In this document: positions 18,967-21,248 of the stretch, in pieces
Numbering within the stretch: the first letter of the stretch is position 1
Layout of the letters: each line of letters begins with the position of its first letter
Source of the DNA: a virus
Direction: 5' to 3' (one strand)
Virus record (IMG/VR): IMGVR_UViG_3300027977_000031
Coordinates: 1 to 64,000 of that record
Length of the DNA: 64,000 nucleotides
Notes under the pieces: model-generated
Told to the model about the DNA's origin: nothing
Databases searched by the model: none
What the model saw: only the letters and a program-made list of their open reading frames with translations
Made by a program: the position numbers and the translations under genes

Positions 18967-19371
18967 AACATGACCAAAGTAATAGTAAACGGAACATTTG
19001 ATATATTGCATCGTGGACATCTAATGATGTTACAACACGCAAAAAGTCTCGGCGATCATCTGTTAGTGGCAATTGATACAGATCGAAGAGTAAAAGAACT
19101 TAAAGGTGAAAATCGGCCTATTAATAATCAAGATGATAGACGATATATGTTAGAAAGTTTAAAATGTGTTAACACTGTTTACTTCTTTGATAGCAAAGAA
19201 CAACTGATAGATATAATGAAAGAATATAAACCAGACATCATGGTCAAAGGCAGTGACTGGCAAGGTAAGAGCGTAGTGGCACAAGAACATGTTAATCAAG
19301 TGATATTTTATGATAGAGTCGGTGAATACTCAACAACAAAAACAATTCAAGATATTGCTAATAGGCGATAA
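18967..19371 (+). CDS. nucleotidyltransferase (cytidylyl/adenylyltransferase, RfaE domain II / HldE C-terminal-like)
   Basis: NGTFDILHRGH (HxGH) motif. Confidence 0.7.
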   Translation, partial: NMTKVIVNGTFDILHRGHLMMLQHAKSLGDHLLVAIDTDRRVKELKGENRPINNQDDRRYMLESLKCVNTVYFFDSKEQLIDIMKEYKPDIMVKGSDWQGKSVVAQEHVNQVIFYDRVGEYSTTKTIQDIANRR

Positions 19372-20071
19372 CTGTACTGATGTGTACCAATATGGTACTA
19401 TTGATAGGTTAAGTCCCGAAGCACCTGTTCCTGTATTTGTTCCTACTCGTACAGAAGAACGTGCTGGCATGGCTGGTAATGTAGCTAACAACTTAAAAGC
19501 ACTGGGTTGCTATGTTGACTACTTGCACGGTGAAACAAGTGTTAAAACTAGACTTATCGACGAGCGTAGTAAACAACAGATTGTTCGTATAGATAGAGAC
19601 GTTCAGTCAACTCCCATTACATTTGATACAGATATCCCCGACATGTACGATGCTATTGTAATCAGTGATTATAATAAAGGAACTGTTAGTTACGAACTAA
19701 TTGAAGAACTTATTGCATTGAGTATTCCTATCTTTATCGATACTAAGAAATCTGACCTTGAGAGATTCCAAGGCGCATGGGTCAAGATCAACGAATTAGA
19801 ACATAGCAAAATTAAAAGTGAATGTTCAGGTCTAATCGTCACACGAGGCAGTCGAGGTGCTAGTGCAATACATCATAGTATAGATGTATCTTCGCACAGT
19901 GTAGAAGTAGTAGATGTAACTGGAGCAGGTGATACCTTTCTAGCAGCGTTAACTTATCAGTACCTTGACACTGGAGACATTGAAAAAGCAATTAAATTTG
20001 CCAACCTGGCGAGTGCGGTTACTGTGCAGCATTCAGGGGTTTATGCTCCAACATTAAAGGAAATAGGATGA
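19310..20071 (+). CDS. PfkB-family carbohydrate kinase (RfaE domain I / heptose-7-P kinase-like)
   Basis: VTGAGDTF ribokinase-family signature. Confidence 0.65.
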   Translation: [253 protein letters not shown]

Positions 20072-20427
20072 CACAATTACAAGGTTATGTAGCAAAGGGA
20101 TGGGGCCACGAACTAATTTGGGCCACTAACGACCTATACTGTGGCAAACTTATGAAGTTTAACAAAGGTGCCAAGTTCAGCATGCATTTTCATGCTATCA
20201 AAGACGAAACATGGTATGTGTTGGACGGATTGTTCACTGTGATCAGTATTGACACTACAAATGCTGATCAAACAACCACAACACTTAAACCAGGCGACAC
20301 TTGGCGCAACAAACCGTTAGCGCCTCATCAGTTGATATGCATCGAAGAAGGCACAGTTATTGAAGTCAGCACAGCAGACAGTGTGGAAGACAACTATCGT
20401 GTGGGCAAAGGCGACAATCAAAAATGA
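20068..20427 (+). CDS. cupin-fold protein (sugar isomerase/epimerase-like)
   Basis: Size and HxH...E-like beta-barrel pattern; sits in the sugar operon; overlapping stops. Confidence 0.3.
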   Translation: MTQLQGYVAKGWGHELIWATNDLYCGKLMKFNKGAKFSMHFHAIKDETWYVLDGLFTVISIDTTNADQTTTTLKPGDTWRNKPLAPHQLICIEEGTVIEVSTADSVEDNYRVGKGDNQK

Positions 20428-21215
20428 ACATACTGTTAACCGGCTATAAAGGTTTTATTGGTAGTCATGTGCTGACAGCACTGGAGGCTGCTGGACACTG
20501 TGTATCAACATACGACTGGGGAGACAGTTTGCCCAGCGTGATGGAACAAGATTGGGTGATTCACCTTGGTGCTATCAGCAGCACTACCGAAAGAGACATA
20601 GACAAAGTAATGCGACAAAATTTTGATTTTAGTCGACAACTATACGATGCTTGTAAAACATATGGCGTTAATTTCCAATACGCAAGCAGTGCAAGTGTTT
20701 ACGGGTTAACCAGTACATTTAGAGAAGACGCTCCGGTTGACCCACGTACTCCTTATGCGTGGAGCAAATACTTGTTTGAACGTTATGTACGCGATCATCC
20801 AAGTGGGAGTGTTGTACAAGGTTTCCGTTATTTTAATGTGTACGGACCTGAAGGCGAAGAACACAAAGGCAATCAAGCTAGTCCGTTTATGCAATTTAAA
20901 CGCCAAGCTGAAACAAACGGCTGTATACAAGTTTTCGAAGGCAGTGAATATTATCTAAGAGACTTTGTTCATGTGTCTAAACTAGTCGACACACACTTGG
21001 ATTTCTTGTATAATACACCTAGTGGCCTATGGAACTTGGGTACTGGAAAGACCATGAGTTTTATGGATGTGGCAAAAAGTTTTAACGTACCTGTTGAAAC
21101 AATCCCCATGCCCGACAATTTAAAAGACTCATATCAAAAGTACACCTGTGCTGATATGAGCAAGTTTAACGCAACGGTGGCAGAGAGGTCCAATGCACGG
21201 GATTGCAAATCCTGA
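20424..21215 (+). CDS. NAD-dependent epimerase/dehydratase (HldD/RfaD-like); the 3' end runs 45 nt into tRNA-Cys
   Basis: Rossmann GYKGFIGS (GxxGxxG); the ORF only terminates inside the tRNA at 21171. Confidence 0.6.
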   Translation: MNILLTGYKGFIGSHVLTALEAAGHCVSTYDWGDSLPSVMEQDWVIHLGAISSTTERDIDKVMRQNFDFSRQLYDACKTYGVNFQYASSASVYGLTSTFREDAPVDPRTPYAWSKYLFERYVRDHPSGSVVQGFRYFNVYGPEGEEHKGNQASPFMQFKRQAETNGCIQVFEGSEYYLRDFVHVSKLVDTHLDFLYNTPSGLWNLGTGKTMSFMDVAKSFNVPVETIPMPDNLKDSYQKYTCADMSKFNATVAERSNARDCKS

Positions 21216-21248
21216 AAACCGGGGGTTCAAATCCCTCCCGTTGCTCCA
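21171..21248 (+). tRNA. tRNA-Cys(GCA)
   Basis: Acceptor gcaacgg/ccgttgc; anticodon arm cggga-ttGCAaa-tcctg; T-arm gggggttcaaatccctc. Confidence 0.85.

What the first reader, a model, noticed from the sequence alone, without database searches (positions are those of the whole stretch)
18967..21248. Phage-borne heptose-type nucleotide-sugar operon whose last gene reads into tRNA-Cys
An HxGH nucleotidyltransferase (RfaE domain II-like), a PfkB kinase with GAGDTF (RfaE domain I-like), a cupin and an SDR epimerase (HldD-like) form an overlapping operon resembling a split ADP-heptose pathway. The epimerase ORF has no stop until 45 nt inside tRNA-Cys. Either the CDS is 3'-truncated or fused by the tRNA, or the true stop was lost.
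Basis: partly seen in the sequence, partly recalled or inferred. Interest (0 to 1): 0.55.

Follow-up and report, generated by a model that had tools for sequence, protein, structure and literature searches.

The report
Phage heptose-sugar operon overlapping tRNA-Cys
A phage carries a four-gene cassette for making an activated heptose-type sugar, already known from marine cyanophages, and it sits so tightly inside a tRNA gene array that the last 14 codons and the stop codon of its final gene lie inside a working tRNA-Cys gene.

Summary
Four overlapping same-strand genes (18970-21215) encode an HldC-like nucleotidyltransferase, a short HldA-like kinase, a metal cupin and an HldD-like epimerase. 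The epimerase ORF has no stop until TGA at 21213-21215, 45 nt inside tRNA-Cys (21171-21248).

It is neither an error nor a decaying gene. The exact 263-aa protein occurs on 24 contigs from several sequencing runs. Relatives with 74-99% identical epimerases share the junction. The epimerase is under strong purifying selection (dN/dS 0.03-0.12). The tRNA shows compensatory stem changes, and these move the stop to 45, 54 or 90 nt.

The epimerase is not truncated relative to its own phage family (253-282 aa). The first three tRNA-encoded residues (A-T-V) fill the family's conserved x-T-L positions.

The heptose reading holds at closest-family level: all three enzymes hit the RfaE/HldD models best but below the curated cut-offs. 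The same cassette, usually with a mini-HAD phosphatase, is annotated in T4-like cyanophages and common in uncultivated viral contigs. Short CDS-tRNA overlaps are annotated in the jumbo phage fHe-Yen9-04.

Verdict: a real, tidy, modestly interesting new member of a known cassette, with an unusually long CDS-tRNA overlap. Product and cupin role remain inferred.

The parts
18888..18963 (+). tRNA-like element (anticodon-loop GAA), probably a chimeric or pseudo tRNA. Its CCA end lies 6 nt before the NT start codon.
   Evidence: Rfam tRNA 48.5 bits, but not called by ARAGORN. By eye, the acceptor stem GCCAAGA/ACCAGGT has 3 mismatches. Its 3' half (CACCAGGTACCA) equals the 3' end of the tRNA-Val that precedes NT in L006 and L049. 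L001 keeps only the 3' remnant.
18970..19371 (+). NT: HldC / RfaE-domain-II-like nucleotidyltransferase (133 aa) with HRGH and STT motifs.
   Evidence: Pfam CTP_transf_like 7e-20. TIGR02199 scores 122 bits against a cut-off of 181.5; TagD scores 83. Best PDB match is 5X9Q at 2e-21. dN/dS 0.17-0.23.
19310..20071 (+). KIN: short HldA / RfaE-domain-I-like PfkB kinase (253 aa). It has the GDx3DxYxxGx3[10 protein letters not shown] and TGAGD motifs.
   Evidence: TIGR02198 scores 158 bits against a cut-off of 345; ribokinase scores 56. Best PDB match is HldA 4E84 at 6e-21, with about 37 residues missing between HldA residues 109 and 146. dN/dS 0.08-0.14.
20068..20427 (+). CUP: 119-aa single-domain metal cupin (HFH..E....H). 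It is the most conserved member of the cassette; its role is inferred to be a sugar(-phosphate) isomerase.
   Evidence: Cupin_2 5e-8, plus weak MannoseP_isomer and Lyx_isomer hits. 4277 homologues, the top 120 more than 70% identical. AF2 model pLDDT 83. Foldseek top matches: KdgF, Ni-quercetinase, minimal phosphomannose isomerase 7ZVY, D-lyxose isomerase.
20424..21215 (+). EPI: HldD-like SDR epimerase (263 aa). Residues 1-249 are encoded before the tRNA and residues 250-263 inside it.
   Evidence: TIGR02197 scores 204.6 bits against a cut-off of 274.6. 1EQ2 matches at 7e-44 with S116, Y140, K144 and K178 equivalents conserved. dN/dS 0.03-0.12.
21171..21248 (+). tRNA-Cys (GCA) with U73 and an encoded CCA. 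It is the only tRNA-Cys in a window whose tRNAs cover all 20 amino acids.
   Evidence: Six pairs show compensatory changes among 5 homologous sequences.
21171..21215 (+). Dual-use segment: tRNA positions 1-45 (acceptor 5' strand, D arm, anticodon arm), which are also EPI codons 250-263 plus the TGA stop.
   Evidence: The stop moves to 54 nt in L001 and 90 nt in L006-L009 when the anticodon stem changes. The codons GCA ACG GTG give A-T-V, matching the family consensus x-T-L.
21256..21783 (+). Downstream tRNA run (Pro, Leu, Arg, Ile, Trp) that continues the array in which the cassette is embedded.
   Evidence: It is syntenic in L001.
20986..21014 (+). Sigma-70-like promoter match inside EPI, about 157 nt upstream of tRNA-Cys. 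It is a candidate only.
   Evidence: 11 of 12 positions match. L002 matches 12 of 12, but L049 and L006 do not conserve it. The number of promoter-like hits in the region is no higher than in shuffles (13 vs 12.2).

Best explanation
What it is. The four ORFs are a functional, widely conserved phage nucleotide-sugar cassette. It is the same kind as the 'heptose/LPS' auxiliary gene cluster of T4-like cyanophages. It has four parts:
- a split HldE, made of an HldA-like anomeric kinase and an HldC-like nucleotidyltransferase;
- an HldD-like C6''-type epimerase;
- a small metal cupin, which most likely supplies the aldose-ketose isomerase step that GmhA performs in bacteria;
- no phosphatase. Many relatives, but not this window, add a roughly 105-aa HAD phosphatase at the GmhB step.

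Where it sits. In this lineage the cassette is wedged into a tRNA array with essentially no intergenic DNA. The NT start codon lies 6 nt after the CCA of the upstream tRNA-like element. The epimerase runs 45 nt into a functional tRNA-Cys gene and borrows its last 14 codons and its stop from the tRNA.

How to read the overlap. It is a stable, tolerated dual use of DNA produced by recombination and compaction at tRNA genes. It is not a truncation, a pseudogene or an error. The epimerase C-terminal tail is naturally short and variable. The first tRNA-encoded residues (A-T-V) happen to fit the conserved x-T-L positions. The rest of the tail, and the position of the stop, are dictated by the tRNA's structural needs.

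How it probably works (inferred, not shown). The cassette and the tRNAs are co-transcribed. On any one RNA molecule, RNase P cleavage at 21170/21171 would leave a non-stop epimerase mRNA. Full translation through tRNA positions 1-45 would prevent tRNA folding. The two outcomes are therefore mutually exclusive.
For: Cassette identity:
- Best family and structure matches are all heptose-pathway enzymes.
- Catalytic motifs are present: HRGH and STT; [8 protein letters not shown] and GAGD; GxxGxxG with the S/Y/K/K residues.

Cassette conservation:
- In 80 IMG/VR loci recruited with EPI, NT, KIN and CUP co-occur in 65-68. Gene order is permuted, and these are the only widely shared neighbours.
- A mini-HAD lies between CUP and EPI in 23 loci.
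- The same cassette sits in P-SSM2 (PSSM2_309-313) and S-CAM1.
- The literature treats it as heptose-related LPS genes (PMC7378029, PMC7029224).

Overlap is real and old:
- The identical protein is on 24 contigs.
- The junction AAY|GCAACGG is shared by relatives whose EPI synonymous sites are near saturation (pS up to 0.67).
- dN/dS is 0.03-0.12.

tRNA is functional:
- Rfam scores 59.7 bits, with a GCA anticodon, U73 and CCA.
- Six compensatory pairs are seen. It is the sole tRNA-Cys in a 20-amino-acid tRNA set.

The tail is dictated by the tRNA:
- The stop lies at 45, 54 or 90 nt, depending on anticodon-stem substitutions.

Not truncated:
- 44 distinct family tails that do not overlap a tRNA have 9-26 residues after the CAD motif.
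- The window has 5 residues before the tRNA, and A-T-V from the tRNA matches the consensus.

General habit of the lineage:
- tRNA-Met overlaps EPI by 13-37 nt.
- tRNA-Gly and tRNA-Arg overlap KIN and CUP by 10-15 nt.
- tRNA-Gly starts 2 nt after the EPI stop.
- NT starts 6 or 11 nt after the CCA of five different upstream tRNAs.
- In the window, the HNH ORF ends 15 nt inside tRNA-Val.
- No + strand terminator lies within 17500-22500.
Against: - All three enzymes fall below NCBIfam equivalog cut-offs. KIN and EPI are shorter than the bacterial enzymes, so substrate and product are not established.
- No SIS-type GmhA or HAD phosphatase was found among the roughly 50 window ORFs scanned.
- The cupin's nearest structures are functionally mixed: KdgF, dioxygenases, isomerases. 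Its isomerase role rests mainly on pathway completeness.
- No glycosyltransferase is conserved next to the cassette, so the use of the sugar is unknown.
- Co-transcription, RNase P competition and the fate of non-stop mRNA are untested inferences.
- A promoter-like site inside EPI could uncouple tRNA-Cys expression from the cassette.
Confidence: 0.75

Rival explanations
1. The cassette makes a nucleotide sugar other than ADP-L-glycero-beta-D-manno-heptose. Candidates include a CDP- or ADP-activated hexose or heptose variant, or an unepimerised or differently epimerised heptose. In that case the cupin would act on the NDP-sugar rather than as the GmhA-type isomerase.
For: - Scores are below the equivalog cut-offs for all three enzymes. 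NT also matches TagD-type cytidylyltransferases at 83 bits (1COZ 2e-19).
- KIN lacks about 37 residues of HldA. EPI lacks part of the NADP-binding region of HldD.
- The cupin's fold neighbours are functionally heterogeneous.
- Phage cytidylyltransferase, kinase and HAD sets are reported to yield heptosylated 5hmC DNA (bioRxiv 10.1101/2023.12.21.572611).
Against: - The heptose families are clearly the best hits for all three enzymes.
- The HldE-specific SPEAPVPV motif and the four HldD catalytic residues are conserved.
- With the mini-HAD of relatives, the five activities map one-to-one onto the five ADP-heptose steps.
Confidence: 0.25
2. The overlap is a regulatory device, not just tolerated compaction. 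tRNA-Cys maturation by RNase P would deliberately convert the epimerase mRNA into a non-stop message that is rescued by tmRNA. Epimerase output and tRNA-Cys output would then be reciprocally coupled, a phage version of tRNA punctuation.
For: - The junction is conserved across deep synonymous divergence.
- tRNAs repeatedly abut or overlap cassette genes, and the CCA-to-ATG spacing is a conserved 6 nt behind five different upstream tRNAs.
- No terminator lies in the region.
Against: - Close relatives (L003 and L004, about 90% EPI identity) end the gene in ordinary DNA. Other relatives use different tRNAs with overlaps from 0 to 37 nt.
- This variation argues for opportunistic packing rather than a specific device.
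- There are no expression data.
Confidence: 0.15
3. The epimerase gene is damaged: truncated by tRNA insertion and on its way to becoming a pseudogene.
For: Only 5 residues follow the CAD motif before the tRNA, fewer than in any non-overlapping relative, where the minimum is 9. About 24 C-terminal residues of E. coli HldD have no counterpart.
Against: - dN/dS is 0.03-0.12 among genomes that share the overlap.
- The ORF is intact in 24 contigs.
- The catalytic residues are intact.
- The short C-terminus is a family-wide trait.
- The tRNA-encoded A-T-V fits the consensus.
Confidence: 0.03
4. The tRNA-Cys call is a non-functional tRNA-like remnant, or the junction is an assembly or sequencing error that hides a real stop.
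For: A chimeric pseudo-tRNA does exist at the other end of the cassette, at 18888-18963.
Against: - Rfam scores 59.7 bits, with the correct anticodon, U73 and CCA.
- Compensatory changes occur in the D, anticodon and T stems.
- The tRNA stays at least 96% identical in L002, L049 and L006 while EPI synonymous sites saturate.
- The junction is identical in independent assemblies.
Confidence: 0.03

Closest known systems
Heptose-related 'LPS' auxiliary gene cluster of T4-like cyanomyoviruses (for example Prochlorococcus phage P-SSM2 PSSM2_309-313, and Synechococcus phages S-CAM1, S-CAM3, S-SSM7)
   Same: Homologues of all four genes are present at 34-47% identity in tblastn. They share the same small sizes and the same NT/KIN overlap. 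The cluster is described as heptose-related LPS genes in PMC7378029.
   Different: - The cyanophage clusters include a 114-aa HAD, annotated there as 'phosphoheptose isomerase'. They sit next to a Nol-like carbamoyltransferase and tail-fibre genes, not in a tRNA array.
- Their epimerase is on the opposite strand and ends in ordinary DNA.
- The window lacks the HAD. Its carbamoyltransferase homologue is 21 kb away, at 42417-43895.
Bacterial ADP-L-glycero-beta-D-manno-heptose pathway (GmhA, HldE or split HldA/HldC, GmhB, HldD)
   Same: The kinase, nucleotidyltransferase and epimerase are the closest families and closest solved structures. Their catalytic motifs are conserved. The kinase/transferase split is as in Burkholderia HldA/HldC.
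   Different: - Scores are below the equivalog cut-offs.
- The kinase is about 60 aa shorter and the epimerase about 50 aa shorter.
- There is no SIS-type GmhA; a cupin is present instead.
- The window has no GmhB.
- No heptosyltransferase partner was identified.
Annotated CDS-tRNA 3' overlaps in the tRNA-rich jumbo phage Yersinia phage fHe-Yen9-04 (Eneladusvirus)
   Same: A same-strand CDS ends inside the 5' part of a tRNA. g477 ends 14 nt into a tRNA-Cys that shares the acceptor stem and T arm of the window's tRNA-Cys. g478 ends 10 nt into tRNA-Lys.
   Different: Those overlaps are 10-14 nt and involve hypothetical proteins. Here the overlap is 45 nt (up to 90 nt in relatives), and it involves an enzyme whose conserved C-terminal positions are supplied by the tRNA.
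Mitochondrial tRNA punctuation, and bacterial mRNA-tRNA co-transcripts (E. coli secG-leuU, tRNA-tufB). This comparison rests on my own knowledge.
   Same: tRNAs flank coding sequences with no or minimal spacers, so tRNA processing would define the mRNA ends.
   Different: Processing would remove the stop rather than create one. None of this has been shown experimentally for this phage.

Membership tests
HldE domain I / HldA, D-beta-D-heptose 7-phosphate kinase (TIGR02198) | PfkB fold with the GAGD anion hole and catalytic Asp | tested here: met
   PfkB 2.5e-22. The sequence carries DVTGAGDTF.
HldE domain I / HldA, D-beta-D-heptose 7-phosphate kinase (TIGR02198) | N-terminal [24 protein letters not shown] motif shared with HldA | tested here: met
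   Residues 7-68 align to HldA 4E84 residues 48-109. [25 protein letters not shown] aligns with [25 protein letters not shown].
HldE domain I / HldA, D-beta-D-heptose 7-phosphate kinase (TIGR02198) | Score at or above the curated equivalog cut-off, with full-length architecture (about 315 aa) | tested here: not met
   158 bits against a cut-off of 345, in three separate stretches. The protein is 253 aa, and about 37 residues of HldA 109-146 are absent.
HldE domain I / HldA, D-beta-D-heptose 7-phosphate kinase (TIGR02198) | [quoted passage not shown] | not testable with these tools
   Needs an enzyme assay.
HldE domain II / HldC, heptose 1-phosphate adenylyltransferase (TIGR02199) | (H/T)xGH and ISTT-type nucleotidyltransferase motifs | tested here: met
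   HRGH at residues 14-17 and YSTTK near the C-terminus.
HldE domain II / HldC, heptose 1-phosphate adenylyltransferase (TIGR02199) | Best-scoring family is rfaE_dom_II rather than TagD or CoaD | tested here: met
   122 bits against 83 for TagD and 47 for PPAT. The top PDB hit, 5X9Q, is deposited as 'putative cytidylyltransferase'. That it is Burkholderia HldC is from my own knowledge.
HldE domain II / HldC, heptose 1-phosphate adenylyltransferase (TIGR02199) | Score at or above the curated equivalog cut-off | tested here: not met
   122 bits against a cut-off of 181.5.
HldD, ADP-glyceromanno-heptose 6-epimerase (TIGR02197) | Rossmann GxxGxxG plus the catalytic Ser116, Tyr140, Lys144 and Lys178 (E. 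coli numbering) | tested here: met
   GYKGFIG is present. The 1EQ2 alignment shows ASS, YxxSK and HKG conserved.
HldD, ADP-glyceromanno-heptose 6-epimerase (TIGR02197) | Score at or above the equivalog cut-off, with full-length architecture (about 310 aa) | tested here: not met
   204.6 bits against a cut-off of 274.6. The profile is matched only over positions 65-296 of 316. About 27 residues of HldD 24-69 and about 24 C-terminal residues are absent.
Complete ADP-heptose pathway | GmhA (SIS-domain sedoheptulose-7-P isomerase) is present | tested here: not met
   No SIS domain was found in the roughly 50 window ORFs scanned. A cupin occupies the cassette instead.
Complete ADP-heptose pathway | GmhB-type HAD phosphatase is present | tested here: not met
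   tblastn of the relatives' HAD proteins against the window found no real match. A HAD is present in 23 plus 8 related loci and in cyanophages.
Cyanophage-type heptose AMG cassette | Co-located homologues of NT, KIN, cupin and epimerase | tested here: met
   for cultured cyanophages. for 65-68 of 80 IMG/VR loci.
Bacterial-type tRNA-Cys | Cloverleaf scoring above the Rfam gathering score, GCA anticodon, U73 discriminator | tested here: met
   59.7 bits against 29. ARAGORN reports the GCA anticodon. The sequence ends ...GTTGC-T-CCA.
Bacterial-type tRNA-Cys | Evolution constrained by secondary structure (compensatory changes) | tested here: met
   6 of 23 pairs keep pairing through double changes in 5 sequences. 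Only a few sequences are available, so this is supportive rather than statistical.
Bacterial-type tRNA-Cys | Is processed and aminoacylated | not testable with these tools
   Needs small-RNA sequencing or a charging assay.

The most novel reading that the evidence does not exclude
In this group of tRNA-rich, mostly uncultivated large phages, protein-coding cassettes embedded in tRNA arrays may be expressed by a tRNA-punctuation mechanism. The mRNA 5' ends would be created 6 or 11 nt upstream of the ATG by tRNA 3' maturation. The 3' ends would be created by RNase P cleavage inside or at the stop region. For the epimerase, tRNA-Cys maturation would then generate a non-stop mRNA. Enzyme output and tRNA output would be reciprocally controlled, and the acceptor-stem codons would be genuinely dual-coding under two selective constraints.
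Probability: 0.15. Interest if true: 0.6.

Novelty: new member of a known kind. Interest (0 to 1): 0.35.

Why it matters
- The cassette's reach. The 'heptose' cassette known from cyanophages is a very widespread viral module: several thousand cupin homologues and hundreds of IMG/VR loci. It can be re-sorted and dropped into tRNA arrays.
- A clean natural test case. A bacterial-type virus here makes one DNA segment serve as both the 5' half of an essential tRNA and the C-terminus and stop of an enzyme, and has done so over long evolutionary time. This bears on annotation rules, since many pipelines forbid CDS-tRNA overlap. It also bears on how tRNA processing and translation termination interact.
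- Annotation problems flagged. The cyanophage 'phosphoheptose isomerase' is a mini-HAD phosphatase. The 'cysteine dioxygenase' or 'nucleotidyltransferase' is the cupin that may really be the isomerase.
- Limits. None of this overturns current understanding. The biochemical product and its target remain open.

Tried and rejected
- Near-identity search of the region in INPHARED phages found only tRNA fragments. A tblastn of a large neighbouring ORF found nothing, so the phage itself is not in the cultured collection.
- I looked for a GmhA or GmhB equivalent, or a conserved glycosyltransferase, next to the cassette. None is in the window or conserved in relatives. The GT2-like gene (23460-24197) and radical SAM gene (24197-25240) downstream are not conserved neighbours.
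- Fold search of the cupin did not discriminate between isomerase, KdgF-like and dioxygenase functions.
- Literature searches found no experimental characterisation of this cassette and no paper on long CDS-tRNA overlaps in phages. Absence from this library is not proof of absence.
- Promoter and terminator scans are no better than shuffled sequence overall. The one strong promoter-like site is lineage-specific.
- The 4-residue identity of the tRNA-encoded 'TVAE' to E. coli HldD 'KTVAEG' was considered and dismissed as coincidence, because the positions do not correspond.
- Two apparent 500-nt ORF/tRNA overlaps are artefacts of longest-ORF start choice.
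Full report
**Observation**

The region holds four same-strand ORFs:
- NT, 18970-19371 (133 aa).
- KIN, 19310-20071 (253 aa).
- CUP, 20068-20427 (119 aa).
- EPI, 20424-21215 (263 aa).

They overlap by 62, 4 and 4 nt. ARAGORN places tRNA-Cys(GCA) at 21171-21248. Rfam's tRNA model scores it 59.7 bits against a gathering score of 29.

Base 21171 is the first base of EPI codon 250.

**Is it real or an artefact?**

The exact 263-aa product, tRNA-encoded tail included, is recorded on 24 contigs from ENA and Logan assemblies of several different runs.

A scan of IMG/VR with EPI returned 80 related loci. Seven of them (L001, L002, L049, L006-L009; 74-99% EPI identity) carry the same junction...AA(C/T)|GCAACGG.

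Between the window and these relatives EPI has dN/dS of 0.03-0.12, with synonymous differences up to pS 0.67. The gene is therefore under strong purifying selection in the overlapped state, and the arrangement is old.

The tRNA is also under selection:
- In L002, L049 and L006 it stays at least 96% identical while EPI synonymous sites saturate.
- The divergent alleles (L001, and the homologous tRNA-Cys of Yersinia phage fHe-Yen9-04) differ by paired substitutions. Six of 23 pairs show compensatory changes in five sequences.
- It has the GCA anticodon, U73 and an encoded CCA.
- It is the only tRNA-Cys in a window whose 29 tRNAs cover all 20 amino acids.

**What the overlap means for the protein**

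The stop is not a fixed feature of the gene. It lies 45 nt into the tRNA in the window, L002 and L049. It lies 54 nt in for L001, where the anticodon stem reads TCCCT instead of TCCTG. In L006-L009 the ORF reads through the whole tRNA and stops at 90 nt. Tail length is thus a by-product of tRNA stem sequence.

The gene is not truncated relative to its own family. The 80 relatives encode proteins of 253-282 aa. In 44 distinct tails that do not touch a tRNA, 9-26 residues (median 12.5) follow the conserved C-A-D motif, with consensus CAD-M/L-T-K-x-N-x-T-L.

The window has only 5 residues after CAD before the tRNA begins. The first three tRNA codons (GCA ACG GTG) give A-T-V, which fits the x-T-L positions. 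So the acceptor-stem 5' strand supplies residues that the family normally has. The remaining 11 residues look like tolerated passenger sequence.

Relative to E. coli HldD (1EQ2), the alignment covers HldD residues 70-286. The roughly 27 residues missing in the N-terminal domain and roughly 24 missing at the C-terminus are family-wide traits, not the result of the tRNA.

**A habit of the lineage**

The same phage group shows other tight gene-tRNA junctions:
- tRNA-Met overlaps the EPI 3' end by 37, 15 or 13 nt (L005; L028 and L052; L014).
- tRNA-Gly starts 2 nt after the EPI stop (L033-L038).
- tRNA-Gly and tRNA-Arg overlap KIN and CUP by 10-15 nt (L045, L055).

At the other end of the cassette, the NT ATG lies exactly 6 nt (sometimes 11) after the CCA of an upstream tRNA. 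This holds behind five different upstream tRNAs, with A/T-rich spacers lacking a Shine-Dalgarno sequence.

In the window itself the HNH endonuclease ORF 18301-18822 ends 15 nt inside tRNA-Val.

A cultured jumbo phage, fHe-Yen9-04, has annotated CDSs ending 14 nt inside a homologous tRNA-Cys and 10 nt inside tRNA-Lys. Short overlaps of this kind are therefore precedented. The 45-90 nt overlap here is at the long end: the longest among 322 tRNAs in the 80 loci.

**What the cassette is**

- NT. Its best NCBIfam hit is rfaE_dom_II at 122 bits, against a cut-off of 181.5; TagD scores 83. Its best solved structure is 5X9Q, deposited as a putative cytidylyltransferase and, to my knowledge, Burkholderia HldC.
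- KIN. Its best hit is rfaE_dom_I at 158 bits, against a cut-off of 345; ribokinase scores 56. It aligns to HldA 4E84, including the SPEAPVPV motif, but lacks about 37 residues.
- EPI. Its best hit is heptose_epim at 204.6 bits, against a cut-off of 274.6; GalE scores 80. It matches E. coli HldD at E = 7e-44, with equivalents of S116, Y140, K144 and K178 conserved.

However, none of the three passes the curated equivalog threshold. 'Heptose' is therefore the closest-family reading, not a demonstrated function.

**Conservation and precedent**

Among the 80 loci, NT, KIN and CUP accompany EPI in 65-68. Gene order is permuted (NT-KIN-CUP-EPI, CUP-EPI-NT-KIN, EPI-NT-KIN-CUP). These are the only widely shared neighbours, the signature of a functional module.

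Twenty-three loci have a roughly 105-aa HAD phosphatase between CUP and EPI, with DxDGT, GKP and DD motifs. Its best NCBIfam hit is the small capsule-biosynthesis phosphatase EcbF/BcbF, in the HAD-IIIA group. Eight more loci have another HAD beside the module.

The window has no HAD and no SIS-domain protein in the roughly 50 ORFs I scanned.

The same cassette (NT, KIN, mini-HAD, cupin, epimerase) is present in cultured T4-like cyanophages such as P-SSM2 (PSSM2_309-313) and S-CAM1 at 34-47% identity. There it is annotated, and cited in the literature, as heptose-related LPS genes (PMC7378029; rfaE in pelagimyophages and cyanomyophages, PMC7029224).

In those records the HAD is labelled 'phosphoheptose isomerase' and the cupin 'cysteine dioxygenase' or 'nucleotidyltransferase'. 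The sequences do not support those labels.

**The cupin**

It is the most conserved cassette member: 4277 homologues, with the top 120 all more than 70% identical. It has an HxH...E...H metal site.

Its AlphaFold model (pLDDT 83) is closest to small metal cupins: KdgF, Ni-quercetinase, the 110-aa Thermococcus phosphomannose isomerase 7ZVY and D-lyxose isomerases.

With the HAD, the cassette has five activities. Four map onto HldA, GmhB, HldC and HldD. The GmhA reaction is chemically the heptose analogue of the phosphomannose isomerase reaction. For these reasons I infer that the cupin supplies the isomerase step. This is inference from pathway completeness plus weak fold and profile hints. I put it at about 50%.

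**Mechanism, shown versus inferred**

Shown:
- gene content, motifs and conservation;
- selection on both EPI and the tRNA;
- the geometry of the overlap and its variation.

Inferred:
- The cassette is co-transcribed with the flanking tRNAs. There is no room for a promoter between the upstream tRNA-like element and NT, and no + strand terminator in 17500-22500.
- RNase P cleavage at 21170/21171 would leave EPI mRNA without a stop codon. From general knowledge, such messages are handled by trans-translation. Conversely, a ribosome reading to 21215 would unfold the tRNA.
- The two products are therefore mutually exclusive per RNA molecule.

I think this is most likely a tolerated cost of compaction and recombination at tRNA genes rather than a regulatory device. 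Close relatives (L003 and L004) end the gene in ordinary DNA, and other relatives use different tRNAs with overlaps anywhere from 0 to 37 nt.

A sigma-70-like match inside EPI could give tRNA-Cys its own promoter in this sub-lineage. It sits at 20986-21014 and matches 11 of 12 positions (12 of 12 in L002), but is absent from L049 and L006. It is unverified.

**Use of the sugar**

This is unknown. No glycosyltransferase is conserved beside the cassette. The window does carry:
- GT-like genes at 6621-7592 and 23460-24197;
- a second sugar-modification cluster: an SDR at 37749-38720, a DegT aminotransferase at 38849-39922 and a Nol-like carbamoyltransferase at 42417-43895.

A homologue of that carbamoyltransferase is the immediate neighbour of the cassette in cyanophages.

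Possible uses, from the literature:
- host surface glycan remodelling (PMC7029224);
- DNA hypermodification, since heptosylated 5hmC has been made by other phage gene sets (bioRxiv 10.1101/2023.12.21.572611).

Neither was tested here.

**Verdict**

The heptose interpretation is supported at closest-family level. The 'truncated' alternative is rejected.

The cassette is a new member of a known, already annotated kind. The long, evolutionarily stable, partly dual-coding CDS-tRNA overlap is the one unusual feature. It has short precedents in cultured jumbo phages.

Interest is modest (0.35).

Noticed in passing
window 18888-18963 (+): A tRNA-like element missed by ARAGORN but scoring 48.5 bits in Rfam. 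It has a GAA anticodon loop, and its acceptor stem has 3 mismatches. Its 3' half is identical to the 3' end of the tRNA-Val that precedes NT in L006 and L049. The 99% relative L001 keeps only that 3' remnant. It looks like a recombinant pseudo-tRNA, a scar of rearrangement at the cassette's upstream border.
   Followed up: partly
window 18301-18822 (+) and tRNA-Val 18808-18881: The HNH endonuclease ORF inside the tRNA array ends (TAA) 15 nt inside tRNA-Val. This is a second CDS-tRNA overlap in the same window. A possible third is the 74-aa ORF 14841-15065, which ends 26 nt inside tRNA-Thr; its coding status is unknown.
   Followed up: partly
window 18964-18969; loci L002, L003, L006, L033, L049, L068 and others: The NT start codon lies exactly 6 nt (or 11 nt in other loci) after the CCA end of the upstream tRNA. 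This holds with five different upstream tRNAs, and the A/T-rich spacers have no Shine-Dalgarno sequence. It suggests mRNAs with near-leaderless 5' ends after tRNA 3' maturation.
   Followed up: partly
window 20986-21014 (+), inside EPI: TCGACA-17-TATAAT matches the sigma-70 consensus at 11 of 12 positions (a perfect 12 of 12 in L002). It lies about 157 nt upstream of tRNA-Cys and is not conserved in L049 or L006. It may be an internal promoter for the downstream tRNA run.
   Followed up: partly
L081 4728-5072 (P-SSM2 PSSM2_311) and 5053-5409 (PSSM2_312); S-CAM1 SXBG_00218 and SXBG_00217: Public annotation problem. The gene labelled 'phosphoheptose isomerase' is a 114-aa HAD-type phosphatase (DIDGT...GKP...DD). 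The neighbouring cupin is labelled 'cysteine dioxygenase' or 'putative nucleotidyltransferase'.
   Followed up: yes
window 45023-51608 (-): Five tandem paralogous radical SAM/SPASM genes of about 420-455 aa each. They lie next to a Nol-like carbamoyltransferase (42417-43895), with a DegT aminotransferase (38849-39922) and an SDR dehydratase/epimerase (37749-38720) nearby. This is a second, larger and uncharacterised modification cluster.
   Followed up: no
window 3556-4584, 5922-6437, 9281-9787, 10734-11636 (+): Two RNA ligases (Rnl2-like and T4 Rnl1-like), an AAA_33 kinase and an HD-domain protein sit just upstream of the tRNA array. This looks like a tRNA repair set.
   Followed up: no
window 21608-21699 (+); also L001 5184-5275 and L003 2116-2207: A 92-nt 'tRNA-Ile(tat)' called by ARAGORN. 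Rfam matches it only weakly, and to tRNA-Sec (25.5 bits, below gathering). It is conserved in relatives and may be an unusually long or intron-containing tRNA.
   Followed up: no
window 21256-21330 (+): A second tRNA-Pro(tgg), a duplicate of the one at 14405-14481. It folds into a clean cloverleaf (z = -3.1), but Rfam did not report it at E <= 0.1.
   Followed up: no
L001 4849-4926 compared with window 21171-21248: L001 is 99-100% identical to the window through the whole cassette, but its tRNA-Cys differs at about 14 positions after the first 11 nt. This indicates a recombination breakpoint inside the tRNA's 5' end, so tRNA genes act as mosaic junctions.
   Followed up: partly
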